Below are positions 3,501 through 45,549 of a DNA stretch of 64,000 nucleotides, in pieces. Numbering within the stretch: the first letter of the stretch is position 1; each line of letters starts with the position of its first letter. The DNA lies in the NCBI GenBank assembly GCA_000092065.1, contig CP000584.1, one strand, 5' to 3'. This DNA is from Ostreococcus lucimarinus. Taxonomy: Eukaryota. The notes beneath the pieces are model-generated. The model did not search any database. It was not told where the DNA came from and saw only the letters and a list, made by a program, of their open reading frames with translations. The translations under genes were made by a program, and so were the position numbers.

Positions 3501-4400
3501 GACGCGCAAAGCACGTCGAGCAAGAGATGGACTGATTTGGCTGCGGCATCGCGAGATTTACAAGAAGCGTTTACAGCCAACAAAGTTAAAGATACCATCA
3601 TTGCAACCATGCGCACAGAACTCAAGGAGCTCACGAACACGGCTGAGTACTTCACCCGACTCGCGCGAGAGCACGGCGAAGAGGCGAAAGACTTCAGCGT
3701 CAAGTTATCGCAAGCGGAGGGTCAAGTCGTCTCGCAAGAGAAACGAATCGGACACCTCTGCGCGTCGTTGGAAGAAACCGAGATCGCGCGAAACGAGTTG
3801 TCCCAGAAGGTTGTCGCGCTCGAGCGCAAGGGTGGCGTCGCAGAGATGACCATTCGCGCCGCTGCTGAGCACCTGTATAAAGCGAACGAACGCGCGCGGT
3901 CTTTGGAGCACCAACTCAAATCGGAACGCGCTGATTTTGAGCGAACGCAAGCGGCGTTGACTGAAACGCTGAACGCTGCCGAACGTTCTATGGAAGCCAA
4001 CATGCAAATCATTTGCGACCTCGAAGCCAAGTACCAAGAAACTTTGCAGCTCTTACTCGTCGAGCGCGAGCACAGTGCCGAAGTGCGCGACGAGATGCGC
4101 AAGGAACTTCAATTCGTCAACGAAGAGCTCGACGCCACGTCTGCGGATCTCGAAATCATGATTGAACGGAATAACTCTGGCATCTTGCTCAAAGTCGCGG
4201 ACAACGCGATGTGCAAGCTTGTGTTCTCCGCCGCGCCAAAGATTTCTGCGCGCGGCGTCAAAGCCGTCATTCGTCTCGGCATGCTCGGCGGTATCGCCGC
4301 GTTGATTGGTCAAACCGTGCGTCAACTCAAGACTAAGGTGGTCGACAAAGCCACCTCGCAAACGCCGCGCGCGTCTTTCCGCTTCGCCTTCCGAGGTTGA
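546..4400 (+). CDS. Long coiled-coil protein (1284 aa) with nine periodic [KR]LRELN heptad-type repeats and a single C-terminal transmembrane helix (tail-anchored architecture)
   Basis: One uninterrupted ORF. It has a repeated ~70-90 aa module, each copy containing K/R-L-R-E-L-N-x-x-[LIM] (KLRELNSML, RLRTLNARL, NLRSLNATL, KLRQLNVTL, KLRELNTVI, KLRELNSVL, NLRELNTRI, KLRTMNAEL, RLRELNHMM). Composition is Ala/Glu/Lys/Leu-rich. The C-terminal hydrophobic segment GVKAVIRLGMLGGIAALIGQTV is followed by a short basic tail. The start could be Met at 546 or Met at 573. Confidence 0.6.
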   Translation: MRANRTPTTMRKRAFGAEVTNSPDARDARDGGRTTTPNDAKTRAMSTPRGTGAVTPRATLTPRASALLRDQRQLASPLRAAISPTRPSSMVKSSVKSSESATKRDAARLRELNSMLLKQLSTARSAAAEAESARETLGEAMAREVAKSKTLAKDVEDKAEALRAAAKRAKKESKDSAEDVKAEAERLRTLNARLMKEVSIARAVVKAREHEEATLKAIAGKSDERANALEAEIDAKQRTLERVQLALVSATERAADSLRANMKVEKLAETNAVLMGELAALRESAASDSQALRAQIAAKSDALIEAKADLAAAEDEVNALSGAKSDVDNLRSLNATLMQQIKSLRFKADEALDVSRALEGKERELAKVCDDLKVAEDAKSAAEDDVMKLRQLNVTLLQQISALKENSEVDGAALEAKQSELEAAQMALELVEEEQERTQNDVTKLRELNTVIMSQVKTLKKSSLDDRAAFKADMDAKNAELSRARVELARLEQSNGTSESALEKARMRQAALDGEVTTLKKIAEENMATNAHLTGQIEAKQLELADVKESLATAEAKAAKLEAAEYDVSKLRELNSVLIAQVKTLRSVEAENASLTAALRSRSAELEKAQLQLAAAERAKATGEKVSESEIANLRELNTRIIQRMGEVKEEQEKKFQQLIDTKTLELASVKAELAEATKELAIGRKDAMALEKSLEKLRTMNAELNGSIKALEAEIEGEKKATLEMRQAILDAQAECASLKGRLSAKDDELESAWSALMCVNADLKHALHDATGMRALAEKRHGELEEANVNVDRLRELNHMMIERLHNAKKAALEAEALNAEFAAARTQAEVTVRSEEAKVAALEQKLKEKDEEYATTTLALRAEMESGNSASAQRLANLQAQMHSQTHSLERQLEYANLDLQKVQRSEAAHIEDQRRSAEEIESLVAQLELTESDAKKDANAMNKHIFALQSKVAAHEASNKALTKKLNSSKAEIKALEQKLADAQSTSSKRWTDLAAASRDLQEAFTANKVKDTIIATMRTELKELTNTAEYFTRLAREHGEEAKDFSVKLSQAEGQVVSQEKRIGHLCASLEETEIARNELSQKVVALERKGGVAEMTIRAAAEHLYKANERARSLEHQLKSERADFERTQAALTETLNAAERSMEANMQIICDLEAKYQETLQLLLVEREHSAEVRDEMRKELQFVNEELDATSADLEIMIERNNSGILLKVADNAMCKLVFSAAPKISARGVKAVIRLGMLGGIAALIGQTVRQLKTKVVDKATSQTPRASFRFAFRG

Positions 4401-29551: not shown

Positions 29552-32500
29552 ATGGCCGCGTCGAGCGAGCGCATCGCGCTCCTCGGCGCGCGCGCGCGCG
29601 AATCGGCGTCGACGAGCGACGATTCAACGCGAGATCGACCGTCAACACTAAAGGTGTCTCGATGGCGAAAAATCGCCCTCGGCGCGCTCGCGTGCGGCGC
29701 GCTCGTCGCGGTCGCGACGCGCGCGCGCGGACGCGGACTCGATGCGCCCGGTCTCGGTCGCGGATGGCTGTCGACGCGCGACGGCGCGATGGACGACGAC
29801 GCGGGAACGACGGGCGGGGCGGGACGCGCGTTCGAAGACGCCGCCGACGGGGGGTTGATCGACTCGCAATACGAGGACGCGGACGTCCCGCGCGATGCGA
29901 GGTACGGTGATATGGGCGTGATCGAGCGCGAGGCCGCGCGGAGGACGCGACGGGGGCGTCGCGGGCGAGGTCGAGGAGGAGAAGCCGAGGGCGCGCTGGG
30001 ACACACGTACATTCGCGTGTACGAAGACGGAAACGACGCGCGCGGGGGAGGCGCGTCGACGCGGAACGGCGGCGCGCAGAGATATAGGACGGTTACGGTA
30101 CCGATACCCACGCGAGTGCGAGTGCCGATGGAACCGGCGAGCGTTGGACCGGCGCCGCGAGCGCAGAGACGAGGACACTCGCCGCTGCCGCCCATCGAAA
30201 CCACGGGTGGTGACTTGTTCGGACTTGGAACCGGCTACTCGTATTACATCGATCCCGCCGATTGGGCGTATCCACCAACGGTAGTCGTAGAGTTGCCCGA
30301 GGGCGTCGAGTTCGCGGACGCCGAGTTGTTCGCGCGCGGCGCGAGCGAGCATCCGCCGAACGAAGCCGGGCTCGTCATGCGAGTGAACGGACAGCGAACG
30401 AGCCCGAATACCTTGGTGAAAAATTTAGATGTGCTCGAAATTGACGCACAAGCTCACAACGTTCTGAACGATGTACGCACGGTGGTATTGCGATACACGT
30501 GGCGCGATCCCGGCGCGGGCGGCGCGCGCAAGCAACGACGGGGTTTGATTAGACTGAACACCAACGGAGATGCGAGGACGGGTGAGACGCAGCCGCATAG
30601 ATGGCCAATCGTCGAGCATCCGGACACTCCATCGGTGCCAGCGCCGAATGTGCCAGCGCCGACGCCAGGGACATATGTGCCAGCGCCGAATGTGCCAGCG
30701 CCGACGCCAGGGACATATGTGCCAGCGCCGGATGTGCCAGCGCCGGATGTGCCAGCGCCGGATGTGCCAGTTCCGGCGCAAGCACCGAATGTACCAGCAC
30801 CGAATGTGCCAGCGCCGACGCCGGCTTATTTTGCTCCGCCTATTGCGTGGCCACCACCACCTGCTCCGGCGATCGTGAGCATTGAGGAGGAAGATATTTT
30901 AGCCGCGAACGAATTGGTTATTCCTGTTCCACCCAATATGTTGATCGGTATACCCACTGATGGACATTTCACGGTGAGTGGCTTGCCGGACTTCGATTCC
31001 GACAACACGCCGCACCGACAAATGATCATGTTTAGCTTCGGTTGGACAGGGAATAACGGCGCCGAGGCTGAGCTCGGGGCTAGCGACAGCCAATTCGTAG
31101 ACCCGCCAGTTATGGACACGTCATCGACGCCGCCGGATTGGATTAGTATTCGAGTGAACGGCCAGTTACATGCGCTGCCGTACGCCGCTCAAAATGGTGA
31201 TCGCATCGTGCTGCGTGTTCGTGCGCCCAGTGAGCCAAACTCGAGTAGAATGGCACAGATGCTCATCGGAGATTTGCATCCGAAAGTTGTTCTCACTACG
31301 TTGGACATTGCCGCGCCGCCATCTCTCGAGGAGACTATGGACGCGATGGAACCGCCGGCGCCACCCATGGTGTCACCACCGCCGCCGCGAGAGTTTACAT
31401 CGCCGCCGCCGCCGCGTGTTCTCACCGCCGCGCCGCCGTCGCCTCCGATGCCACCATCACCGATTAGTGTAGTTGCTGACGACGATGCTTCGTACTACGA
31501 CACGGGCACGCCGAGTTCCACACCGGCACCAGCGGCCGATGACGCGTCATACTACGACACGGGCGCGCCAACGCCGACGGATGACGACGCGTCGTATTAC
31601 GACACTAGTACGCCGAGTGCGACGCCAACGCCAACGCCAACGCCAACGCCGACGGATGACGACGCGTCGTACTACGACACTAGTACGCCGACGACGCCAA
31701 CGCCAACGCCAGCACCGACGGATGACGACGCGTCGTATTACGATACTAGTACGCCGACGACGCCAACGCCAACGCCAGCACCGACGGATGACGACGCGTC
31801 GTATTACGATACTAGTACGCCGACGACGCCAACGCCAACGCCAGCACCGACGGATGACGACGCGTCGACGGACGACACGGCTTCGTCAAGTCCGACACCA
31901 GCGCCGACGGACGACACGGCTTCGCCGAGTCTGACGCCGGCGCCGACGGACGACACGGCTTCGTCAAGTCCGACGCCGGCGCCGACGGACGACACGGCTT
32001 CGCCGAGTCCGACGCCAGCACCGCAGCAGTCGCCGGTCGACGCCTTTGAACCGACGCCGGGTGCGCCGACGGAGAGCCTCGACGACGCCCCGCCAGAAAG
32101 TGACGACTCATACGCTGACTTCGCGCCGGCGTCTGCGTACCCGTCGAGCGTGAACGGTACGTCTGGCTACCCGTCGAGCGTGAACACCACGACGCCGGAC
32201 GCGACATCGAGCGCGAGCGAGCCAGCTCTGCCAACGACCCCCCCGAGTCCGCCGCCGCCGCCGAGTCCGCCGCAGCCGCCGAGCCCGTCGCCGCCGCCGC
32301 TTCCACCGGCGCCTCCTGGAATCGTTAACGTGCACAACGTCACCATGCAAGCAGGTTCGAAAGCGGTGATGTTCCATCCACCAAAAACAGTTGAGACGCT
32401 GCAATCGCCGAATCAACCACTGACGCTGCACTTTATGGAGAATGGCAACGACGCTCAACTCGCGAGTTCTGGATTGCCGTTGTGGACCGAAGTCTACGTC

Positions 32501-34144
32501 AACGGCGACTTGCAAGACGACGCCGACATCACCTTGAGTAACGGTGATCGTTTGCAACTTTTCGTCAAAGCTTCTCCAGCTCCCCTGGTTCGACGCGCCG
32601 CATATCTTTCATACGGTCACAAGCAATTCGTTCTCGACGTCACCACGGCGCAGACGAGCCCGCCACCCCCGCTTCCGCCGGCGGCGCCGCCGCCGCCGAA
32701 CGACGTCATCCTTGCACACGTCGCCGCGAATCACCCGACACAGTGCACGTCGGCACAAGCGTACAAGTGGTCGACGTTGACTCAGAATGATCGATCTACC
32801 GTGCCCATGAACGCGTGGTGCTCGAGAAACACCACGTTTGGCGAGTTTCAGGCTCCGCTGTGCTCGCATCAAACCGGGCGGGACATCATCATCTTAGTCG
32901 ACGCCAGCGAAGCCATCGGTAGTGAGGTGTTCTATGGGAAGATGATCGACATGTTGCATGATTTGTACTGCACGATCGAAGGCACGGGATCGCAAGTCGG
33001 CGTTTTGCTACTCCCAGGAGCTGGCAACCCGTACGTGTGCGACGCCTACACGAGTTACATTCCGTTGCAGCAGCACACGAGCGAGGACTTCCACGCGAGT
33101 TTAGAAAGGATGCGAGCGGACGAGGGCGCGTGTTGCGGCCGAAGCGTGCCGTTGGCGCAAGGTTTGAAAGCTGCGAACGGATTGTTCCGCGATTTCGGCA
33201 TCTTTCCGCCGAATGAGCGAAGCGTCATCTTCGTCACGGCTTCGCACCCATCGACGCCGGTGGAGTTCGAGACTTGTTTGAGCATAAGTGTACCTGAATT
33301 CCGTGACTTGACGCGAGATCACCCCTTCAACGTGCTTCCGAGCGGTGAAGAAATGACAACGTGCGAATACAAGCTTCGATCGGTGCCTGTCGCCGCGGCG
33401 GAACTGAAAACTGCCGGTGTTCGCGTTTCCGTCGTCACCGTTCCGGGCGCCGACGGCGCCGTCCCGTCGAGCGCGTACTACAGCGGCTCTCCGTGGCCGA
33501 GCAAATGCACGGCGGACGGCCAGTGCGAATTTTCTGCCCCGTACGGCGGCGATCGCGGTCACTGGGGCTCGTGGTATACCGACGCCAACGGTGACCTGAC
33601 GCGCGACTACAACCCCGGACCCGAGCTCGCGTGCCAAATGCGCGTCCATCCCGGGACGCCCGTCGTCAGCAGGCCCGTGCTCGCCAACGCCTTGCGCGTC
33701 AACGCGTGGAACCCTCGCGGGTACGCCGACACTCTCGCTGTGGCCATGTGTCCCGCGCCGCAGTGCTTACCCTCGAGCTTGTTCGGCTCCACGTTCGCCG
33801 ACAACTGCGTCGGCGACGACGCGTCGAATTGGGCCCAAACGCTCTCGTGCGTGCGCGGCGAATCGTACTCCATGTGCGACCGTCTCATCCCTCGCACCGA
33901 GCGCTGCCACGCCGAAGTCCGAAGCGACCCCGTGGCCGTGGGCACCGTCAATAACGTCACCGCCGTCAGCGTTCGCATCCACTGCGAGCAACACTGCTCG
34001 GGCGAGCGCACGGACACGCACGCCAAGTCGATTCGCGTCGTCTGCCCGCGCGGCGCCTCGTGCGACGGCGAAGTCATCGGCGACGACGTCATCACCGCCG
34101 TCGAGGCTCAGAGCGCGACGCCGCCGACCTCATCGAACCAGTAA
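29552..34144 (+). CDS. Large cell-surface/cell-wall proline-rich (HRGP-like) glycoprotein with tandem repeats and C-terminal VWA-like domain (1530 aa)
   Basis: It has an N-terminal signal-anchor (IALGALACGALVAVAT) and a PAPNVPAPTPGTYV repeat block. TDDDASYYDTSTPTTPTPTPAP 22-aa repeats and TDDTASSSPTPAP 13-aa repeats follow. Then come SPPPPPSPPQPPSPSPPP stretches and a VWA-like domain (DIIILVDASEAIGSEVFYGKMIDMLHDL...VGVLLLPGAG...SVIFVTASH) with a Cys-rich tail. Three copies of a VNGq...NGDRl.L.V.A module are also present. Confidence 0.7.
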   Translation: MAASSERIALLGARARESASTSDDSTRDRPSTLKVSRWRKIALGALACGALVAVATRARGRGLDAPGLGRGWLSTRDGAMDDDAGTTGGAGRAFEDAADGGLIDSQYEDADVPRDARYGDMGVIEREAARRTRRGRRGRGRGGEAEGALGHTYIRVYEDGNDARGGGASTRNGGAQRYRTVTVPIPTRVRVPMEPASVGPAPRAQRRGHSPLPPIETTGGDLFGLGTGYSYYIDPADWAYPPTVVVELPEGVEFADAELFARGASEHPPNEAGLVMRVNGQRTSPNTLVKNLDVLEIDAQAHNVLNDVRTVVLRYTWRDPGAGGARKQRRGLIRLNTNGDARTGETQPHRWPIVEHPDTPSVPAPNVPAPTPGTYVPAPNVPAPTPGTYVPAPDVPAPDVPAPDVPVPAQAPNVPAPNVPAPTPAYFAPPIAWPPPPAPAIVSIEEEDILAANELVIPVPPNMLIGIPTDGHFTVSGLPDFDSDNTPHRQMIMFSFGWTGNNGAEAELGASDSQFVDPPVMDTSSTPPDWISIRVNGQLHALPYAAQNGDRIVLRVRAPSEPNSSRMAQMLIGDLHPKVVLTTLDIAAPPSLEETMDAMEPPAPPMVSPPPPREFTSPPPPRVLTAAPPSPPMPPSPISVVADDDASYYDTGTPSSTPAPAADDASYYDTGAPTPTDDDASYYDTSTPSATPTPTPTPTPTDDDASYYDTSTPTTPTPTPAPTDDDASYYDTSTPTTPTPTPAPTDDDASYYDTSTPTTPTPTPAPTDDDASTDDTASSSPTPAPTDDTASPSLTPAPTDDTASSSPTPAPTDDTASPSPTPAPQQSPVDAFEPTPGAPTESLDDAPPESDDSYADFAPASAYPSSVNGTSGYPSSVNTTTPDATSSASEPALPTTPPSPPPPPSPPQPPSPSPPPLPPAPPGIVNVHNVTMQAGSKAVMFHPPKTVETLQSPNQPLTLHFMENGNDAQLASSGLPLWTEVYVNGDLQDDADITLSNGDRLQLFVKASPAPLVRRAAYLSYGHKQFVLDVTTAQTSPPPPLPPAAPPPPNDVILAHVAANHPTQCTSAQAYKWSTLTQNDRSTVPMNAWCSRNTTFGEFQAPLCSHQTGRDIIILVDASEAIGSEVFYGKMIDMLHDLYCTIEGTGSQVGVLLLPGAGNPYVCDAYTSYIPLQQHTSEDFHASLERMRADEGACCGRSVPLAQGLKAANGLFRDFGIFPPNERSVIFVTASHPSTPVEFETCLSISVPEFRDLTRDHPFNVLPSGEEMTTCEYKLRSVPVAAAELKTAGVRVSVVTVPGADGAVPSSAYYSGSPWPSKCTADGQCEFSAPYGGDRGHWGSWYTDANGDLTRDYNPGPELACQMRVHPGTPVVSRPVLANALRVNAWNPRGYADTLAVAMCPAPQCLPSSLFGSTFADNCVGDDASNWAQTLSCVRGESYSMCDRLIPRTERCHAEVRSDPVAVGTVNNVTAVSVRIHCEQHCSGERTDTHAKSIRVVCPRGASCDGEVIGDDVITAVEAQSATPPTSSNQ
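30634..30828 (+). repeat. Tandem repeat, 15-nt base unit GTGCCAGCGCCGAAT/GGAT (encodes PAPNV/PAPDV), about 12 copies
   Basis: Near-perfect nucleotide-level repetition is seen directly. A 45-nt higher-order unit is duplicated exactly. Confidence 0.8.
31481..31868 (+). repeat. Tandem repeat, 66-nt unit (encodes TDDDASYYDTSTPTTPTPTPAP), about 6 copies, three identical
   Basis: Copies at about 31690, 31756 and 31822 are identical at nucleotide level, which suggests recent expansion or concerted evolution. Confidence 0.8.
31869..32022 (+). repeat. Tandem repeat, 39-nt unit (encodes TDDTAS(S/P)SPTPAP), 4 copies
   Basis: Seen directly. Copies differ only at 2-3 positions. Confidence 0.8.
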
Positions 34145-38516: not shown

Positions 38517-39509
38517 GTGATGCGATGCGAGTCCCGTCGGGGACACATCGCGACGCGCCGCGCGACGCCGGCGACGCGCGCGGGCATGAGCCTCTTCTAC
38601 GGCGCCGCGGACGTCGAGTCGACGTCGTCGTCGAGCGACGACGACGGCGCGCGCGACGCCGGCGCGCGCGACGACGCGACGACGACGGCGAAAGATGCGC
38701 ATCGCGTCGCGCGGCGACCGACGACGACGACGGCGCTGCCGCGCGCGGCGGACGTGATGACGGCGCTGGACGGCGACGACGACGAGGCGACGCGGGCGAC
38801 GGTGATGCGCGGGACGACGGCGCGCGGGATGGCGCGCGCGGTGGCGGACGCGCTGCGGGAGACGCGGCGCGACGCGTACTACGCGGAGACGGCGAGGGAG
38901 GACGGCGCGAAGGACGCGGCGACGATACGGGTCGACGCGCGCAGGGTGATGATCGTGGAACAACGCGTCGCGGTGCGGTTGATGACGAAGACGTCGAACG
39001 GGGTGCTGGAGGCGGTGGCGGCGACGGGGGCGCGGGCGACGACGACGGAGGCGTCGGCGGAGGAGGATTTTGACGAGCGAGAGAAACGAAGGATCGCGAT
39101 CACGGGACCGCCGGAGAGCGTGCAAAAGTGCGTTGAGTTGATAGAATCGCTCGTGCGCGAGACGGAGAATCGAACGTCGAAGCGGTTCTTTTGTCCAAAG
39201 GCGTATTTGGGAGCGTTCATCGGACGCGGGTACGGGCACGTGCACAAGATTGAGGGCGTTTCAAAATGTAAAATCGTGATATCTGACGAGGACAAGGTGC
39301 ACGAAGGGAACGAACACTCGGTGGTGCGCGCGATTGAGGTCACGGGGACGCCGATGCAGGTGAGTTTGGGGTACAAACTCGCGTTGCAGACGTTGGACGA
39401 GGCTTTGGCGTCCGCGCCGGACGCCGAAGAGCTCAAAGCAGAGTTGAAAGAAACGAGCGGTGGGTTTGATTTAGACGCCGAACGCGCGAAGAAAAAAGCA
39501 AAGAACTAG
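38517..39509 (+). CDS. KH-domain RNA-binding protein (two type-I KH-like modules)
   Basis: It contains RRIAITGPPESVQKCVELIESLV and AYLGAFIGRGYGHVHKIEGVSKCKIVISDED...SVVRAIEVTGTPMQVSLGYKLALQTL, with GxxG-type loops. The N-terminus is low-complexity. The true start is likely the Met at 38583. Confidence 0.5.
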   Translation: MMRCESRRGHIATRRATPATRAGMSLFYGAADVESTSSSSDDDGARDAGARDDATTTAKDAHRVARRPTTTTALPRAADVMTALDGDDDEATRATVMRGTTARGMARAVADALRETRRDAYYAETAREDGAKDAATIRVDARRVMIVEQRVAVRLMTKTSNGVLEAVAATGARATTTEASAEEDFDEREKRRIAITGPPESVQKCVELIESLVRETENRTSKRFFCPKAYLGAFIGRGYGHVHKIEGVSKCKIVISDEDKVHEGNEHSVVRAIEVTGTPMQVSLGYKLALQTLDEALASAPDAEELKAELKETSGGFDLDAERAKKKAKN

Positions 39510-39561: not shown

Positions 39562-42500
39562 TTATCGAAGGTCGCCCGTGTCCCAAATCCCCGTGCGCTC
39601 GTTGCGTAAATTTGCAATGTTTCGATCGAAATCCCATCGCGCGCGTGATTCCCGCGAACCGTCGGCGTCGTTATACTCGATCTCTACGAAATCTTGCGCG
39701 GGAATCGTCGACGTAAGCGGTGTTTGTCGTACGCTCGTCGGCTCGAGCGACCTCGCACTCAGCGTCGGTTCCAAAGATGCAGAGGCGACGGTGAACGCAG
39801 TCTTGCGCCCGACGGTGTCCGAGACGTCGAAGTCGGTGAACTCGCTTAGGTGCGGTGTCGCATTTTCGTCGTGCGATGCGCGCGTTTCACCACCGCTGGA
39901 AACTTCGCTTACCACACTCACTGCTTCTTCGCCGTCGTCGTCTTCGGGAATGTCAGCCGGAGGCCAAAACACACCCATGACGTCGACTTCGCCAAACGCT
40001 TCGTCGATGATGAAATATCCATCCTTGATGGCGTTTTGAAGTTTATTTACGAGTATTTCCAAAGGACCACCTTCATTGCTACCGTCACGTCGTTCTGTGA
40101 TGCGGACGGTGACGGTATCTGCGATGTCATCCGTGCGCGCCACGCGCACTCTGTTGACGTCGACGCCGAGCTCGACGGCGATTTCTTTGCAGAAAAAGAG
40201 TTGCGTCGCGTGAGACTTGAACTTTGCCACGGGCATGTGCGTCATGACCTCGATGTCTACGTGGGTTATGTGCGACTTCGTGCGCGACGTAGGCTGATGC
40301 TTTTTTGTACGGCGTATGCCGAACACGTCGACTTCGGCTGGAGCTAGTACCGCAGGCGGCGGCTCAATGTTCGCCTTTGCCATCGGAACGATAGTCTGTG
40401 CCTTAGGCGCGATCGACATGGCCATTTTCGCCGCCGTGCGCCATGAAACTTTCACTTTTTCTTCTTCACTCTCCTTGAGCGCGAGTAAACCGCCACCAGA
40501 TGCTTCTATCACCTTGTGTCGCGGCGGCGCTTGCGGCAACGCGGCCCAATCCTCGAGCGAGCCCGCGACGAAGTAACGTAAGCACGCCCACGCGCCACCA
40601 GCGGCGCCTTGCATCGCTTTGAGTTGTTCTGCCGTCAAATCGTACGTTTCGGATGATTCCATCTTGTCGCTGCACGAAACTTCGCACTCAAATTGATGCT
40701 CATACTTGATCATGCGCAACAAACTCACGTTTTCTTCGAGGGAGTAGTCGAGAGTCAAGAAGTCGAGACGTTTGCCTCGCCACTGCTGCAAGCCGAGAAT
40801 CTCGTTGAGACCTTTGAGGAATAACGCAATGTCACCAGTCTGCATCACTGTTCTCTTGTCCATGATCACGTCGTCGCCCAAGCGCACACCGCCCGGGAAT
40901 GTTGGCGCGATGACGGCGACGCGCTCTACAGGTTGCAAGCCACTGGCTGTCGATAGTCTCTCCTTAGCCTTCGCGATGAGCTTTCTACAAAGCATCGCAC
41001 TGTTGACGTCGTGCTCGTACAAGATAACGCACGTGTCGTCGAGCGCACATGCTTCCAGGCGTTCGGGAAACTTCATCGCGTCTGAGATAAACACGAGAGA
41101 TTCGTACACGCGTGTGGTGTTCGAACGCTTCATCTTTGGCGGCTGCGGCTCGACGTCTGCGGTCGCGACGATCGGGTTCAACGTCTGTTTTGTCGTCGCG
41201 GGTTTCGAACTCTTGCCATCGTCTGTTGTCGCCGCCAGTTGTATCTTTGCCAGTGCAATCTTCATGAGCTGATGTTCGACGGTGTTTGGCGTGAATTCCT
41301 CTGGCACGTCTGCGTCGTCCAACTCGTCGAGTTCCGCAAGTGCCATACTCAGATTGAACATTTGCGTTTTGGACAAAGCCGAACTGTCTGCGCACGCGCG
41401 TGTGCGCTGATAATATTTCATGCAATCCTCGATTCGACCTTGAGAGAGTCGAGTAAGCGTGAGATTGTACAGCGCCGGATAGTAACTCGGATTAATCGTC
41501 AACGCCAGCCTGAGTTGCTCGTTGCACGCGCTCAATAGTCCCTTGCACCAATCGAGCATGGCCAAGTTCGTCAACGCCTCGACGTTGCCCGGATCAACTT
41601 CCAACGCATTAAGGTAATTCGCCCCGGAGCGCTGGAAGTCGCCTCGCCTGAAGGCCAAGTTCCCGAGCTTAACTTGCGACGGAGCGTGCTTGGCGTCGAG
41701 GTTCAACGTCTGTTCAAAGTGATATTCGGCTTTCTTCCATTGTCCAAGCTTAACGTACAACAGCGCGAGGGCGTACGTCGCGCGTGAATCATTCGGACGG
41801 CAGTCGACGGCGCGTTTCATCCATTCTTTTGCCTCACCCACAGAACCAATGGAGTCGATGACGATTGCGAGATTGTACAAAGCCTTGAAGTAATTCGGTT
41901 CACGATCGAGCGCGGCGAGATAGCTCACGCGCGCGCTCGCCGCATCGCCCGCCAAGAAGTGCGCGTTGCCGATGTTGAAGTGCGCGACCGCGCTCACCGG
42001 ATCGCGACGAATTGCCATCGCGTACACCGTGCTCGCCTTTGCGAGCTTGCCTTGAGCGAGGAAAATATTGCCGAGCGTAATCTGCCGCTGCGCTGTCAGG
42101 GTAAGACTTGCACTCCGTTGCGCAAACGCGTGCGCATACTCGGTATCACCGGCGAATGCGCGACAGATGGCCAAGCCGTGCATGATATCGGCGTTTCCCG
42201 GATTCCTCTCTGCCATTCGCGCGTAAATTTCTTCGGCTTCTTCGATACCACCTCTTCGAAAGCAATCGATAGCATAGCGCAAGTCTTCGTCTTCAAATTC
42301 CTTTATGGTGCCGCGAGACGCCGCCGTGTTTTCCATCAACGGTGTGATAGCGTCCACGAAAGATTCGTTTTCGGCGTACTGAAGTGTGAGCTTTTCCCGA
42401 GCCCATATCCGTCTAGAAATTATCCAAAGAATTATGCCGTACACGGAGAGAGCGATGCCTCCCACGGTCCACGACGTCTTGTCGGCTTCGCGCACTCCGA

Positions 42501-45500
42501 GCGGTGGCGGCGGTAGTGGAGGAAGCTCGTACGTGCCGTCGGGGATGCACCGCACGCCATCAATGGCTTCCTGCACCTCTACGCTCAAAACACCGTCAGC
42601 ACGCATGCGAGGCGTTTCCCCGACCCACGCAGGAGCGCCACTAACGAATCCCGATGGACACGCCACGCACGCGACGGATCCAAACGACCCCGCGAAGAAA
42701 TTATCTTGACATTGCACGCAAGACGTCATGCCGCTCGCGGGTTGAATCGTCCCGCGCGGGCACAGAGCACACTCCAACGCTCCTGTTAGTGGTGCCACTG
42801 TGCCGGGCACACACGTGGGGCAACCCGTCGATCCACGAAAGCCAGTCGCCGTGCCCGCACCGCACGTCAAACACTGCGCAGCGTTCGTCGTCGTGGAATA
42901 CGAGCCCGGATTGCACAAAGAACACTCTCGCACTGCGGCGCTCGCGGATGAACTCACGTATGAGCCCGCTGCGCAATCAACTGACGGTAATGACAAAGGC
43001 ACTGCGCCTACGTTCAGCGTACTCGCCGTCACGGCGTCCGAAATCTTCGTCACCGCTTGCGAGAGGTACGTTTGATTCCAGTCGCCGCCGTAACTCGTTG
43101 GCAACATCGCGAGCGAATTGATCGTAAACACAACGATCACCGAGCCTTGTTTGATTCCCAGGATTTCAACATCGTTTGCGGTTGTTCCGTCACTCAGTGC
43201 GCTCGCTATACCAGTTTTGAACGCGGTCGCGTCGGTCTCCGTCCAACCTTCGACGTTTCCTTGTAATCGCAAAGAAATCTCAGGGACGTTGATCGTCACG
43301 TTGAGCGGCGGCAGCGACGGCGGCGATGGCGGCGGTGGTGATGGTGGAGGAGAGGGTGGTGGGTTCGGTGGCGGTGGGGCAAGTCCACAAGACGTCTGCC
43401 CGACGTCACCGAAAGTTCCAGAACCGCTCGCACACGGCGTCGGCGTGACGGTGCCTGCGTTGGGACAGCTGGTGTCCACCGGGCACAATACGCACGTGCT
43501 CGAATCGCTCGCCGCAGTCGCCGTGCTGTACATTCCGGCAGGACACTTAGTACAGTCCTCGTCCGAGACCGCGGCGGTCGTGAGCCCGAACGTTCCAGCA
43601 GGACACGAGCTGCAAGCACTGACACTGCCCAAGCTGTACGTCCCCTTCGCGCAGTCGTACTGCGCCGTCGCCGAACTCGTGTCGTTGCAATACCGCCCTG
43701 GTGGGCAGAACGAGCAATGTGTCTGACCACCTTCACTGAACGTCCCGGGCGCACAATCGGCATTACCACTACCGTCCGTCGCAGGGCATTGTTTGCCGAC
43801 TTCGCACCTCGTGCACGCGCTCACGGCGCCTCCGTAACTATAAAATCCTAACGCGCAGTTCAGCTGTATGTCCTGCGTTGTATCCGTGCAGTAGCGCCCT
43901 GGATCACACTCAGTACACGCTGCAGCTCTCCCTAAACTGAACGTTCCCGCTTGGCACTGCGTCTGATCACCCGGAAGCGGCGTGGGACACGCCGATCCCG
44001 CGGTACAATTTGAGCACGCCTGCGCGCCTGCGTAAGACTGCGTGCCGATCGGACACAAAGCCGGAGCGGACGCTCCATCGGCGCACGAGTAGCCTTCAGG
44101 ACACGTTACACATCCTGCGCCGGACGCCGCCGCGGTCGGCTGCCGAAGTGGGTCGGTGTCGTTGTAAGGCCTCGCAAACGCAACGGCGACATCCTTGAGA
44201 GCCCAGCCGCTGTAGGTGCCCGCGCCGCACTCCTGGTACGCAGTGAGCCCTTCGGTCGGGCACGACTTACCCACCGGGCACGTTAGACAGCTTCCTGACG
44301 CAGAGCTGGGCTGGTACGTGCCGATATCACACAGTTCGCAAGACGTCGATCCCTCCTCTGCGTACGATCCAGCGGGACACGCCGAAGGCGTAATTCTTTC
44401 CGCAGTCGACTCGCACTTGTAACCAGCCGGACATGGCAAGCACGACGTACTTCCCACAGTAGCCGCATATGTCCCGGCCAAACAAGGCGAGCACGTCGAA
44501 CTTCCCTCGGCTGCCGCCGACCCCGCGGCGCAAATCTCCGGCGTCACCGTGCCCGGCGATTCACACTTGTAGCCCGCCGTACAGCTTGTGCAAGTCGCTG
44601 ACGCCGCCGACGCCGCGAACGTGCCAGCATCACACGTCGAACATTCGAGCGATCCCTGCGCGGACGATGTACCCGCGAGACAGGGCTGCGGCGTGATTGT
44701 CGCCGCGCTCGCACACTTGTAGCCCGCCGGACACGGCGCGCACGATCCTCCCGCGGCGCCGTTGTACTCTCCCGCCGGACACGGCACCGCGATCGACGTC
44801 TTCAACAATTCACACTCCGTACCCGCCGGACACTGCGAGCACGACGACTGCTTTCCCTCGAAAACGCACGTCACAGTCGTTCCCTCGTTGTCCAATCCCG
44901 CACCGTTATTCGTCACCTCCCCGCACCCCGACACGAATCCGTCCGCTTGCCCAGCCGTCTCGCACACCATCCCGATCGTGCCCGTCGGGCTCACTGACGG
45001 CGCGCACGTCAACGTCATCGTCCCCGAATCCGGCAGCGGGATCACGCACGTCGCCGCTTGCTCTTTAAAAAAGCTCAACCCGCCCTCCGCGTACGCGCAC
45101 GTCGCCGCGATTTTCGACCCGTCCAGCCCGTGACTCGCCTGATACGCCTCCTGCAGCGCCGTCACCCAATTCGCCTCATCTATCGCGTTCCCCGCGCAAT
45201 CCGTGGCGACGTCCCACTGGCACACCGCGTTCGCGCCCGTGGCGTAATTTCCGACGCCGCAGTCGGCGCACGACGTCGCCGTCCCGTCGCCGCTCGTCCC
45301 CGCCGCGCAGTCCGCGCACGCGCCGTCATCGATGAACTGTCCCGCCGCGCACGTCTGCGCGGACGCGGGCGTTATCAACGCCGTCGCCGACAGCGCGAGG
45401 AGCGTCGCGAGCGTCAGCGCGCGCCGCACGCGCGCGAAACGAGGCCGCGGCTCTTTCGGCATTTCGCAACGCGTCGACGGTTTCGTCTCTACGCGTCGCC

Positions 45501-45549
45501 GACGATCGACGACATGCGCCCGTCGCGCGTGTGCGCGCCCGCGACGCAC
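39562..45549 (-). CDS. Receptor-like type-I membrane protein: signal peptide, ~20 Cys-rich ephrin-receptor-like/TNFR-type repeats, Pro-rich stalk, TM, cytoplasmic TPR array and uncharacterised C-terminal domain (1995 aa)
   Basis: The signal peptide is LTLATLLALSATALITPASA. Repeated C.xC.AG.Y....C..C..G... units follow (for example CSPCLAGTYAATVGSTSCLPCPAGYKCES). Then come PPPPNPPPSPPPSPPPPSPPSLPP, a TM helix WTVGGIALSVYGIILWIISRRIW, about 10 TPR motifs (AHFNIGNAHFLAGDAASARVSYLAALDREPNYFKALYNLA...) and a ~600-aa C-terminal region with no family I recognise. Confidence 0.7.
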   Translation of the reverse strand: MRRGRAHARRAHVVDRRRRVETKPSTRCEMPKEPRPRFARVRRALTLATLLALSATALITPASAQTCAAGQFIDDGACADCAAGTSGDGTATSCADCGVGNYATGANAVCQWDVATDCAGNAIDEANWVTALQEAYQASHGLDGSKIAATCAYAEGGLSFFKEQAATCVIPLPDSGTMTLTCAPSVSPTGTIGMVCETAGQADGFVSGCGEVTNNGAGLDNEGTTVTCVFEGKQSSCSQCPAGTECELLKTSIAVPCPAGEYNGAAGGSCAPCPAGYKCASAATITPQPCLAGTSSAQGSLECSTCDAGTFAASAASATCTSCTAGYKCESPGTVTPEICAAGSAAAEGSSTCSPCLAGTYAATVGSTSCLPCPAGYKCESTAERITPSACPAGSYAEEGSTSCELCDIGTYQPSSASGSCLTCPVGKSCPTEGLTAYQECGAGTYSGWALKDVAVAFARPYNDTDPLRQPTAAASGAGCVTCPEGYSCADGASAPALCPIGTQSYAGAQACSNCTAGSACPTPLPGDQTQCQAGTFSLGRAAACTECDPGRYCTDTTQDIQLNCALGFYSYGGAVSACTRCEVGKQCPATDGSGNADCAPGTFSEGGQTHCSFCPPGRYCNDTSSATAQYDCAKGTYSLGSVSACSSCPAGTFGLTTAAVSDEDCTKCPAGMYSTATAASDSSTCVLCPVDTSCPNAGTVTPTPCASGSGTFGDVGQTSCGLAPPPPNPPPSPPPSPPPPSPPSLPPLNVTINVPEISLRLQGNVEGWTETDATAFKTGIASALSDGTTANDVEILGIKQGSVIVVFTINSLAMLPTSYGGDWNQTYLSQAVTKISDAVTASTLNVGAVPLSLPSVDCAAGSYVSSSASAAVRECSLCNPGSYSTTTNAAQCLTCGAGTATGFRGSTGCPTCVPGTVAPLTGALECALCPRGTIQPASGMTSCVQCQDNFFAGSFGSVACVACPSGFVSGAPAWVGETPRMRADGVLSVEVQEAIDGVRCIPDGTYELPPLPPPPLGVREADKTSWTVGGIALSVYGIILWIISRRIWAREKLTLQYAENESFVDAITPLMENTAASRGTIKEFEDEDLRYAIDCFRRGGIEEAEEIYARMAERNPGNADIMHGLAICRAFAGDTEYAHAFAQRSASLTLTAQRQITLGNIFLAQGKLAKASTVYAMAIRRDPVSAVAHFNIGNAHFLAGDAASARVSYLAALDREPNYFKALYNLAIVIDSIGSVGEAKEWMKRAVDCRPNDSRATYALALLYVKLGQWKKAEYHFEQTLNLDAKHAPSQVKLGNLAFRRGDFQRSGANYLNALEVDPGNVEALTNLAMLDWCKGLLSACNEQLRLALTINPSYYPALYNLTLTRLSQGRIEDCMKYYQRTRACADSSALSKTQMFNLSMALAELDELDDADVPEEFTPNTVEHQLMKIALAKIQLAATTDDGKSSKPATTKQTLNPIVATADVEPQPPKMKRSNTTRVYESLVFISDAMKFPERLEACALDDTCVILYEHDVNSAMLCRKLIAKAKERLSTASGLQPVERVAVIAPTFPGGVRLGDDVIMDKRTVMQTGDIALFLKGLNEILGLQQWRGKRLDFLTLDYSLEENVSLLRMIKYEHQFECEVSCSDKMESSETYDLTAEQLKAMQGAAGGAWACLRYFVAGSLEDWAALPQAPPRHKVIEASGGGLLALKESEEEKVKVSWRTAAKMAMSIAPKAQTIVPMAKANIEPPPAVLAPAEVDVFGIRRTKKHQPTSRTKSHITHVDIEVMTHMPVAKFKSHATQLFFCKEIAVELGVDVNRVRVARTDDIADTVTVRITERRDGSNEGGPLEILVNKLQNAIKDGYFIIDEAFGEVDVMGVFWPPADIPEDDDGEEAVSVVSEVSSGGETRASHDENATPHLSEFTDFDVSDTVGRKTAFTVASASLEPTLSARSLEPTSVRQTPLTSTIPAQDFVEIEYNDADGSRESRARWDFDRNIANLRNERTGIWDTGDLR

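What the first reader, a model, noticed from the sequence alone, without database searches (positions are those of the whole stretch)
39562..45549. Giant receptor-like protein combining extracellular ephrin-receptor-like Cys repeats with a cytoplasmic TPR array
The 1995-aa protein has a signal peptide and about 20 C.xC.AG.Y....C.xC repeats, the pattern of ephrin-receptor-like / TNFR-type cysteine-rich domains. These are followed by a PPPSPPP stalk, a single TM helix, about 10 TPR motifs and a ~600-aa C-terminal region with no family I recognise. An extracellular cysteine-rich sensor joined to an intracellular TPR scaffold with no kinase is not a standard architecture. It may be a lineage-specific surface receptor or adhesion protein.
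Basis: partly seen in the sequence, partly recalled or inferred. Interest (0 to 1): 0.55.

Follow-up and report, generated by a model that had tools for sequence, protein, structure and literature searches.

The report
Giant cleavable-type surface receptor of green picoalgae
This is one real, intron-less gene for a 1966-residue single-pass surface protein found only in tiny marine green algae; it joins a cysteine-rich outer rod, through a domain that probably cuts itself as in animal mucins, to an inner scaffold with no working enzyme, and nobody has studied it.

Summary
The ORF is real. It runs from ATG 45462 to stop 39562 (minus strand, 1966 aa). It is conserved end to end in Ostreococcus and Micromonas relatives, and a relative has complete transcripts, so it is not a gene fusion.

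The layout was incomplete. Three elements lie between the stalk and the TM:
- a SEA-fold domain with an invariant G773-S774-V-I-V motif at its beta2-beta3 turn, the known SEA self-cleavage motif;
- six more Cys hairpins;
- an almost invariant juxtamembrane block.

The "unknown" C-terminus resolves into four parts:
- a DUF4347 domain, whose fold resembles the TcdB-type cysteine protease domain. Both positions I map to the catalytic pair are replaced (His to Pro1520, Cys to Leu1571), so it is probably a dead protease;
- a ferredoxin-like domain;
- a disordered tail;
- a conserved C-terminal peptide.

Best reading: a non-enzymatic adhesion or mechanosensing receptor built like a mucin or dystroglycan. 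Function, location and cleavage are inferred, not shown. No literature was found. It is a new variant of a known kind, of moderate interest.

The parts
39562..45462 (-). Whole coding sequence: ATG 45462 to TAA 39562-39564, 1966 aa, no intron
   Evidence: It is 100% identical to P0001. Full-length orthologs are co-linear.
45358..45462 (-). Signal peptide, aa 1-35 (hydrophobic core 15-33, ASA|QTC)
   Evidence: Hydropathy scan. A signal-like N-terminus followed by AQTC is conserved in orthologs.
44773..45357 (-). N-terminal Cys-rich region, aa 36-230: two GCC-like hairpins, then a ~130-aa Cys-containing insert with no assigned family
   Evidence: 17 Cys. No significant Pfam hit. No PDB profile hit. 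Cys columns are invariant.
43384..44772 (-). First array of ephrin-receptor-like (GCC2/GCC3) CxxC hairpins, aa 231-693
   Evidence: Pfam PF07699 at 2.2e-25. CxxC positions. Weak phmmer match to the Chlamydomonas mastigoneme protein Mst1, 8tx1.
43303..43383 (-). Proline-rich (SPPP-type) stalk, aa 694-720
   Evidence: Read directly from the sequence. Pro columns are invariant in orthologs. Low pLDDT and no secondary structure in the model.
42973..43302 (-). SEA-fold domain, aa 721-830 (beta-alpha-beta-beta-alpha-beta)
43141..43146 (-). G773-S774, candidate SEA self-cleavage site (IKQG|SVIVVF)
   Evidence: It lies in the turn between model strands 72-78 and 82-88. GS[VIL]3 occurs once in the protein against 0.065 expected. 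G and S are invariant in 11 family sequences. The motif and its loop position are described in PMC6954182.
42628..42972 (-). Second array of six CxxC hairpins, aa 831-945
42532..42627 (-). Near-invariant extracellular juxtamembrane block, aa 946-977 (WVGETPRMRADGVLSVEVQEAIDGVRCIPDGT); three short helices in the model
   Evidence: E, T, M, R, A, D, G and L are invariant from Ostreococcus to Micromonas. A degenerate copy is present in the distant relatives P0231 and P0235. Model helices at 250-274.
42412..42474 (-). Single transmembrane helix, about aa 997-1017, followed by RRIWAREK
   Evidence: It is the only internal hydrophobic window. Model helix. Flanking charges.
41308..42294 (-). Cytoplasmic TPR array, aa 1057-1385: 9 TPRs in 34-residue register plus a capping helix
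   Evidence: Pfam TPR families. PDB matches to the OGT TPR region (9e-30) and to consensus TPR proteins. Register scan.
40537..41109 (-). DUF4347 (PF14252)-type alpha/beta domain, aa 1452-1642. Both positions I map to the catalytic pair are replaced (Pro1520 for His at 40903-40905; Leu1571 for Cys at 40750-40752)
39955..40263 (-). Cytoplasmic ferredoxin-like (SEA/MAD-like fold) domain, aa 1734-1836
39580..39639 (-). Conserved C-terminal peptide motif, aa 1942-1961 (RWDFDRNIANLRNERTGIWD)
   Evidence: W, D, L, E, T and G are invariant in 8 orthologs. It recurs in distant relatives (ENTGIW, ESTGLG, EETGLW). Short helix in the model.

Best explanation
This is one gene for a 1966-aa type I membrane glycoprotein specific to Mamiellophyceae-type green picoalgae. 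The window is an Ostreococcus-like genome.

Outside the membrane:
- a signal peptide;
- a long, rigid, disulfide-stapled rod of about 24 GCC2/GCC3 hairpins;
- a proline (SPPP) stalk;
- a SEA-fold domain carrying the canonical G|S-V-I-V hairpin motif;
- six more hairpins;
- a near-invariant juxtamembrane block.

Inside the membrane:
- nine TPRs, which form a peptide-binding scaffold;
- a DUF4347 domain, a relative of the TcdB/MARTX-type cysteine protease fold, that lacks both positions I map to the catalytic pair (Pro1520, Leu1571);
- a ferredoxin-like domain;
- a disordered acidic/Ser tail;
- a conserved C-terminal peptide.

Most likely mechanism (inferred). Like MUC1, dystroglycan or SEA-bearing adhesion receptors, the protein cleaves itself at G773|S774 during folding. 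It then sits at the surface as two non-covalently held subunits. The outer rod binds a ligand, another cell or a particle. Load on the rod can separate or deform the SEA module. The membrane-bound subunit reports this only through protein-protein contacts of its TPR, dead-protease and tail scaffold, because it has no enzyme of its own.

Shown: the ORF, its conservation, the domain identities and folds, the motif, and the replacement of the two dyad positions.
Inferred: topology, cleavage, surface location, and signalling or adhesion.
For: One gene:
- Continuous 1966-codon ORF.
- Co-linear full-length orthologs at 53-59% identity (Ostreococcus, including the O. tauri cluster) and 34-35% (Micromonas, including the M. 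pusilla CCMP1545 cluster).
- Two MMETSP transcripts typed 'complete', 1976 aa, in the P0005 cluster.
- Conserved convergent KH-gene neighbour.

Topology:
- Only two hydrophobic segments.
- 82 Cys outside and 14 inside.
- Basic residues after the TM.

Ectodomain:
- PF07699 at 2e-25.

SEA domain:
- Model pLDDT 82-92 with beta-alpha-beta-beta-alpha-beta order.
- GS[VIL]3 is unique in the protein, against 0.065 expected.
- The motif sits in the beta2-beta3 turn.
- G and S are 2 of only 4 invariant columns in 11 sequences.
- The meaning of the motif is given in PMC6954182, and of SEA autoproteolysis in PMC10327162.

Cytoplasmic scaffold:
- TPRs.
- DUF4347 assignment.
- The cysteine-protease interpretation of DUF4347 comes from PMC13323088.
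- His to Pro and Cys to Leu.
Against: - No experiment of any kind bears on this protein, and no paper was found.
- Pfam's SEA model does not hit the domain, even at E up to 10. A PDB profile search finds no SEA sequence either. The SEA assignment therefore rests on an AF2 model built from only 8 sequences plus a 5-residue motif.
- The SEA domain is about 170 residues from the membrane, not adjacent to it as in mucins.
- Many SEA domains do not cleave.
- The window's DUF4347 domain does not reach Pfam's cut-off by itself, and Foldseek gave no significant PDB match.
- I could not map the dyad onto Tce1 residue by residue, because there is no sequence hit. The mapping rests on canonical PF14252 motifs and on the matching 54-residue His-Cys spacing.
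- Location at the plasma membrane rather than an internal membrane is unknown.
Confidence: 0.55

Rival explanations
1. A passive structural surface protein, either a coat or an adhesin. The Cys-rich rod and proline stalk simply project from the naked cell. The TPR-containing tail anchors the protein to cortical cytoplasmic structures. Nothing is sensed or transmitted, and the GSV motif is not cleaved, or cleavage has no consequence.
For: - GCC2/GCC3 rods form structural filaments in the Chlamydomonas mastigoneme protein Mst1, which is among the best structural matches.
- There is no catalytic domain anywhere in the protein.
- The proline stalk resembles green-algal wall glycoproteins (my own knowledge).
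Against: - The cytoplasmic 950 residues, including short motifs at the very C-terminus, are as conserved as the ectodomain from Ostreococcus to distant relatives. That is more than a simple anchor would need.
- The G-S pair and the juxtamembrane block are invariant.
Confidence: 0.22
2. An endomembrane cargo or sorting receptor, comparable to ELAPOR1 or sortilin-type receptors. The Cys-rich part faces the lumen of the Golgi or endosomes. The conserved tail motifs are trafficking signals read by adaptor proteins.
For: - SorCS2 appears among the matches to the ferredoxin-like domains.
- Short conserved C-terminal motifs are typical sorting signals (my own knowledge).
Against: - The ELAPOR1 match is to the generic GCC2/GCC3 hairpins only.
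- A 950-residue folded cytoplasmic scaffold is unlike the short tails of sorting receptors.
- No mannose-6-phosphate-receptor-type or VPS10 domain was found.
Confidence: 0.12
3. An artefactual fusion of two adjacent genes, a secreted Cys-rich protein and a TPR protein; or, alternatively, a gene that mainly makes a short product from the internal Met at MRADG (window 42606).
For: - Many metagenome gene calls of 1006-1039 aa start exactly at that Met.
- GC content falls from 0.67 to 0.55 along the gene.
Against: - There is no stop codon for 1966 codons.
- The same frame continuity holds in at least 8 species clusters.
- Complete 1976-aa MMETSP transcripts exist in a relative.
- The internal Met lies inside an invariant extracellular block, upstream of the only TM. 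A product starting there would have no signal peptide.
- The short calls come from metagenome pipelines. I take these to use prokaryote-type gene callers, which is my inference.
- The GC shift follows amino-acid composition.
Confidence: 0.03
4. A flagellum- or cilium-related protein, suggested by two links: the ectodomain resembles the mastigoneme protein Mst1, and DUF4347 occurs in the ciliary transition-zone protein ECT2L.
Against: Ostreococcus has no flagellum (my own knowledge), yet it keeps the full gene under strong conservation. Both links are to widely shared domains.
Confidence: 0.03

Closest known systems
SEA-module transmembrane mucins and relatives (MUC1, MUC16, dystroglycan, IA-2, SEA-bearing adhesion GPCRs)
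   Same: - Type I layout with a large ectodomain.
- A SEA-fold domain with a G|S-V-x-V motif in the beta2-beta3 hairpin.
- A non-enzymatic cytoplasmic part that works by binding partners.
   Different: - No Ser/Thr/Pro-rich mucin repeats; the rod is made of GCC2/GCC3 hairpins.
- The SEA domain is separated from the membrane by six hairpins and a conserved block.
- The tail is a 950-residue folded scaffold (TPR, DUF4347, ferredoxin-like).
- Pfam's SEA model does not detect the domain.
Ephrin_rec_like / GCC2_GCC3 proteins (ELAPOR1, Chlamydomonas mastigoneme Mst1, Eph receptor cysteine-rich domain)
   Same: PF07699 repeats above the cut-off and matching hairpin structure.
   Different: - No Eph ligand-binding domain, fibronectin domains or kinase.
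- Not a filament subunit, as far as known.
- None of the listed PF07699 proteins outside this family carries TPRs.
DUF4347 (PF14252): P. aeruginosa T6SS effector Tce1 (PDB 9qpe), N-termini of giant bacterial cadherin/Ig proteins, animal ECT2L (PDB 11xu)
   Same: - Same sequence family at the profile level.
- Like ECT2L, it lacks the His and Cys.
   Different: - Canonical bacterial members keep the HG...C motifs, which are proposed to form a cysteine-protease dyad (PMC13323088). Here they are Pro1520 and Leu1571.
- The domain sits in the cytoplasmic tail of a membrane receptor, after TPRs.
Green-algal TM + DUF4347 + EF-hand proteins (Volvox africanus GLI62112.1; metagenomic P0246)
   Same: - Single-pass membrane proteins with a cytoplasmic DUF4347 domain.
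- P0246 also has a SEA-like GSLVV piece outside.
   Different: - They have EF-hands instead of TPRs.
- Their ectodomains are short.
- They keep the Cys.
Bacterial RsgI SEAL-domain anti-sigma factors; Notch
   Same: The concept: a self-cleaved or force-exposed juxtamembrane alpha/beta module that holds an ectodomain until load releases it (PMC10327162).
   Different: - No evidence here for a second, intramembrane cleavage or for a released transcription regulator.
- No LNR or GAIN domains.
O-GlcNAc transferase / SPINDLY TPR arrays
   Same: These are the best natural sequence matches for the TPR region (9e-30 and 1.6e-11).
   Different: No glycosyltransferase domain follows the TPRs.

Membership tests
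Ephrin_rec_like / GCC2_GCC3 (PF07699) | Pfam model score above the gathering cut-off | tested here: met
   88.6 bits against 23.1, in 7 stretches
Ephrin_rec_like / GCC2_GCC3 (PF07699) | Conserved Cys pattern and disulfide-hairpin fold | tested here: met
   [not shown]
Eph receptor tyrosine kinases | Ephrin ligand-binding domain, fibronectin III domains and a cytoplasmic kinase | tested here: not met
   None of these was found by Pfam at E up to 0.1
TPR repeat proteins | Tandem 34-residue helix-turn-helix motifs | tested here: met
   Ten Pfam TPR families above their cut-offs; 9 motifs in exact 34-aa register; matches to OGT and consensus TPR proteins
SEA domain (PF01390 and divergent SEA-like domains) | Sequence match to the Pfam SEA model | tested here: not met
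   No Pfam family at E up to 10 for aa 715-835; no SEA hit in a PDB profile search
SEA domain (PF01390 and divergent SEA-like domains) | Extracellular beta-alpha-beta-beta-alpha-beta sandwich fold | tested here: met
   [not shown]
SEA domain (PF01390 and divergent SEA-like domains) | G|S-[VI]-V-V type motif in the beta2-beta3 hairpin | tested here: met
   G773-S774-V-I-V in the turn between strands; invariant G and S; motif defined in PMC6954182
SEA domain (PF01390 and divergent SEA-like domains) | Actual autoproteolysis, with the fragments staying associated | not testable with these tools
   Needs protein biochemistry
DUF4347 (PF14252) | Pfam model score above the gathering cut-off for this sequence | tested here: not met
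   No PF14252 hit for window aa 1440-1660, even at E up to 10. Relatives P0224 (28.4 bits) and P0227 (25.9 bits) pass the 24.6 cut-off.
DUF4347 (PF14252) | Profile-level homology over the whole domain | tested here: met
   hhalign of the family-only profile against a canonical member gives 98.7%, E 3.5e-16, over 168 columns. Against ECT2L it gives 96.7%. Nine of 10 weak HMM hits scanned carry PF14252 at E <= 0.001 in the matched region; 8 of them pass its 24.6-bit cut-off and P0254 falls just short at 24.1.
DUF4347 (PF14252) | Same three-dimensional fold as a solved member | tested here: met
   [not shown]
Clan CD / C80-type cysteine protease domain (TcdB CPD-like) | Catalytic His-Cys dyad | tested here: not met
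   The canonical HG and LLxC positions are Pro1520 and Leu1571. Pro is invariant in the family. Dyad assignment follows PMC13323088. Direct mapping onto Tce1 was not possible.
Transmembrane mucins | Long Pro/Thr/Ser tandem-repeat O-glycosylated domain | tested here: not met
   Only a 27-residue proline stalk; the rest of the ectodomain is Cys hairpins
Notch / adhesion GPCR | LNR repeats plus HD, or a GAIN domain plus 7TM | tested here: not met
   No such Pfam hits; a single TM

The most novel reading that the evidence does not exclude
A unicellular green alga carries a mucin/Notch-style force-gated receptor. The SEA domain self-cleaves at G773|S774. Pulling on the Cys-rich rod (by a neighbouring cell, a particle or a virus) sheds the outer subunit. 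The exposed invariant juxtamembrane block then triggers a second cleavage or a conformational change. That step frees or re-wires the scaffold of TPRs, dead protease and tail, possibly through the TPRs gripping the protein's own conserved C-terminal peptide. This would be a SEA-based mechanosensor outside animals and bacteria.
Probability: 0.15. Interest if true: 0.75.

Novelty: new variant of a known kind. Interest (0 to 1): 0.5.

Why it matters
Ostreococcus and Micromonas are among the smallest and most abundant marine eukaryotes. Ostreococcus has no wall, scales or flagellum, so how it senses contact, partners or viruses at its surface is poorly known.

A 1966-residue surface protein kept intact from Ostreococcus to Micromonas and more distant relatives is a leading candidate for such a role. 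O. tauri can be transformed (my own knowledge, not checked here), so the predictions are directly testable.

The analysis also gives three wider points:
- a likely self-cleaving SEA module in a green alga;
- a recurrent pairing, in green algae, of single-pass membrane proteins with a cytoplasmic DUF4347 domain;
- evidence that eukaryotic DUF4347 domains, including the one in animal ECT2L, lack the residues proposed to be catalytic in bacterial members.

Tried and rejected
1. Fusion artefact: rejected.
2. Cys repeats as low complexity: rejected.
3. Homology between the ecto SEA-fold domain and the cytoplasmic ferredoxin-like domain: hhalign probability 2.4%, no support.
4. Pfam on six sub-regions at E up to 10: nothing for the SEA region, the juxtamembrane block or the tail.
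5. Word-indexed homolog searches with the C-terminal profile and the SEA profile: only close fragments were found.
6. PDB profile searches with the SEA profile and the N-terminal profile: no meaningful hits.
7. Residue-level mapping of the dyad onto Tce1 by sequence: Tce1 was not hit.
8. Foldseek against the PDB: no match at E <= 0.001. The AFDB library was not available.
9. Exact look-up of the 1014-aa internal-Met product: not on record.
10. Literature searches for this protein or this architecture in Ostreococcus or Mamiellales: none found.
11. I did not identify the species of the window. It is not O. tauri (59% identity).

Full report
**1. Observation**

The window holds an uninterrupted ORF of 1995 codons at 39562..45549 on the minus strand. 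ORFs in the other frames across it are at most about 200 aa. The upstream extension from GTG 45549 contains no Met. The first ATG is at 45462, which gives 1966 aa ending in TAA at 39562-39564. This product is identical to database protein P0001.

The genome is gene-dense, about 60% GC, and carries eukaryotic housekeeping genes such as adaptin, Utp14, NSUN2 and pantothenate kinase. The nearest named relatives of this protein are from Ostreococcus tauri (59% identity) and Micromonas pusilla CCMP1545. The window is therefore an Ostreococcus-like green picoalga, but not O. tauri.

**2. One gene, not a fusion**

- Seven further species-level clusters encode co-linear full-length proteins. Identity is 53-59% for Ostreococcus-type and 34-35% for Micromonas-type sequences. 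All have the same order of parts and the same frame continuity.
- One cluster contains two MMETSP transcripts typed "complete", 1976 aa.
- A convergent KH-domain gene lies just downstream, both in the window and in a Micromonas-type contig.
- Many metagenome gene calls of 1006-1039 aa start at an internal Met (MRADG, window 42606). That Met lies in an invariant extracellular block upstream of the only TM helix. I read these calls as artefacts of the gene callers, which I take to be prokaryote-type. An internal start has not been excluded.

**3. Topology**

- Only two hydrophobic segments exist: residues 15-33 (signal peptide, ASA|QTC) and about 997-1017, followed by RRIWAREK.
- The N-terminal 960 residues are 8.5% Cys (82 Cys). 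The C-terminal 947 residues are 1.5% Cys.
- This fits a type I membrane protein with its C-terminus in the cytoplasm. The topology is inferred, not shown.

**4. Ectodomain**

- Pfam Ephrin_rec_like (GCC2/GCC3) scores 88.6 bits against a cut-off of 23.1. There are 24 CxxC hairpins, and their Cys columns are invariant.
- The first about 195 residues contain a Cys-bearing insert with no assignable family.
- After the first array comes a 27-residue SPPP-type proline stalk.
Three further elements actually come first.
  - (c) Then comes the most conserved block of the protein, WVGETPRMRADGxLSVEVQEAIDGVRC. It is predicted as three short helices next to the membrane. It is still recognisable in distant relatives.

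**5. The SEA motif**

- The turn between strands 2 and 3 of the SEA-fold domain reads IKQ-G773-S774-VIVVF.
- GS[VIL]3 occurs once in the protein, against 0.065 expected from composition.
- The motif is present in every relative whose sequence covers this region.
- G and S are two of only four invariant columns in an 11-sequence alignment that includes distant members.
- GSVVV or GSIVA in the beta2-beta3 loop is the motif that leads to SEA autoproteolysis (PMC6954182). After cleavage the fragments stay together through the shared sheet, and the module has been implicated in mechanotransduction (PMC10327162).
- Against this, Pfam's SEA model does not detect the domain. A PDB profile search does not either.
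- I therefore call it a divergent SEA-fold domain with a cleavage-type motif. Cleavage itself is untested.

**6. Cytoplasmic part**

- Nine TPRs lie in exact 34-residue register at 1057-1361, plus a cap. Their best natural matches are the TPR arrays of OGT and SPINDLY. No glycosyltransferase domain follows.
- For the last 520 residues, an AlphaFold2 model from 7 sequences shows two folded domains separated by disorder.
- Domain 1 (aa 1452-1642, pLDDT about 88) is a DUF4347 domain. The evidence is as follows.
  - An exhaustive HMM search with the family's C-terminal profile reached canonical PF14252 proteins through this region.
  - The distant relatives P0224 and P0227 pass the Pfam cut-off.
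  - A profile made only of this family's first-copy domains aligns to a canonical bacterial DUF4347 at 98.7%, E 3.5e-16, over 168 columns. It aligns to animal ECT2L at 96.7%.
  - ECT2L residues 289-458 are PF14252 at 65 bits.
  - The window sequence alone does not hit PF14252, and Foldseek was inconclusive.
- Tce1's DUF4347 domain resembles the TcdB cysteine protease domain and has a proposed His186/Cys240 dyad (PMC13323088).
  - Canonical members show HG and LLxC motifs about 54 residues apart, the same spacing.
  - In this family those positions are Pro1520, which is invariant, and Leu1571.
  - The domain is therefore very probably a dead protease used as a binding module.
- Micromonas-type and distant relatives carry a second copy. 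Most of these keep the His, and all but P0227's lack the Cys.
- Domain 2 (aa 1734-1836, pLDDT about 83) is ferredoxin-like. Its matches are SEA/MAD-type and NUP54 domains. It has no detectable sequence relation to the ecto SEA domain.
- The tail is disordered but holds conserved short motifs. It ends in RWDxDxNxxNLRxxExTG(IW), which is conserved even in distant relatives.

**7. Distribution**

- The C-terminal profile found only 53 proteins at E <= 0.001 among 1.84 billion representatives.
- The hits with the full architecture (PF07699, TPR and, in P0224 and P0227, DUF4347) are all environmental or algal sequences.
- Among the 120 listed hits to the whole protein, only its orthologs combine TPRs with PF07699.
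- Green algae also have single-pass proteins with a cytoplasmic DUF4347 plus EF-hands: Volvox africanus GLI62112.1, and P0246, which also has a GSLVV SEA-like piece.

**8. Mechanism**

- Shown: gene integrity, conservation, domain identities, the motif, and the replacement of the two dyad positions.
- Inferred: the protein is a surface receptor or adhesion molecule that self-cleaves in the SEA module. It would act like MUC1, dystroglycan or SEA-bearing adhesion receptors. It would transmit binding or load on its rigid rod to a purely protein-binding cytoplasmic scaffold.
- A speculative extra is that the TPRs bind the protein's own C-terminal peptide.
- Rivals: a passive coat or adhesin (0.22), an endomembrane sorting receptor (0.12), a fusion or short isoform (0.03), and a flagellar role (0.03).

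**9. Novelty and score**

- No literature on this protein or this architecture was found. Sources label it "hypothetical" or "TPR repeat protein".
- Every part belongs to a known kind. The combination is new, as is the presence of a cleavage-type SEA module in a green alga.
- I rate it a new variant of a known kind, interest 0.5.
- Caveats: both structural models rest on shallow alignments; the SEA assignment is structural, not sequence-based; and nothing about function has been tested.

Noticed in passing
window 42606 (internal Met, aa 953) and relatives P0215, P0217, P0218, P0121: Many metagenome gene calls of 1006-1039 aa begin at the Met of the invariant MRADG block, just outside the TM helix. 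This is probably a gene-caller artefact. An internal start giving a short isoform without a signal peptide is not excluded.
   Followed up: partly
O. tauri protein OUS49281.1 (cluster of P0003): The NCBI model for the O. tauri ortholog is 2435 aa and is named 'MYND-type domain-containing protein'. That is about 500 aa longer than the 1937-aa ORF, so it is probably fused with a neighbouring gene.
   Followed up: no
window 38517-39509 (+); L002 11290-12411 (-): A KH-domain gene lies convergent and immediately downstream, both in the window (about 50 bp gap) and in a Micromonas pusilla-type contig. This is conserved micro-synteny.
   Followed up: partly
P0006, P0007, P0008, P0224, P0227 (C-terminal regions): Micromonas-type and distant relatives carry a second DUF4347 copy. 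The Micromonas and P0224 copies keep the His (THHKPG/THWKPG). All but P0227's lack the Cys. Ostreococcus versions, including the window, have only one copy.
   Followed up: partly
P0259 (Volvox africanus GLI62112.1), P0246, P0247: Green algae have other single-pass membrane proteins with a cytoplasmic DUF4347 domain followed by EF-hands. P0246 also has an extracellular SEA-like GSLVV segment. These copies keep the Cys but not the His.
   Followed up: partly
PDB 11xu chain A1 (ECT2L residues 289-458): Animal ECT2L contains a clear PF14252 domain (65 bits) that lacks the His and Cys. A 2026 preprint places an ECT2L dimer on the B-tubule of the ciliary transition zone.
   Followed up: partly
window 546-4400 (+) and 29552-34144 (+): Two other very long ORFs (1284 and 1530 aa) have no Pfam family at E <= 1e-5.
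   Followed up: no
window 39562-45462: GC content falls from about 0.67 in the 5' (ectodomain) half to about 0.55 in the 3' half of the same gene. This follows the Ala/Gly/Pro/Cys-rich composition of the ectodomain.
   Followed up: partly
aa 721 (NVT) and 796 (NQT), window about 43300-43302 and 43075-43077: Two of the five ectodomain N-glycosylation sequons flank or lie inside the SEA-fold domain. Most Ostreococcus orthologs conserve them (LNxT in four of five, WNQTYL in all five).
   Followed up: partly
P0220 (345 aa, PF09844): A short metagenome contig encodes a DUF2071-family protein whose end is 100% identical to 12% of the C-terminal query. It is likely a chimeric contig or gene call.
   Followed up: no
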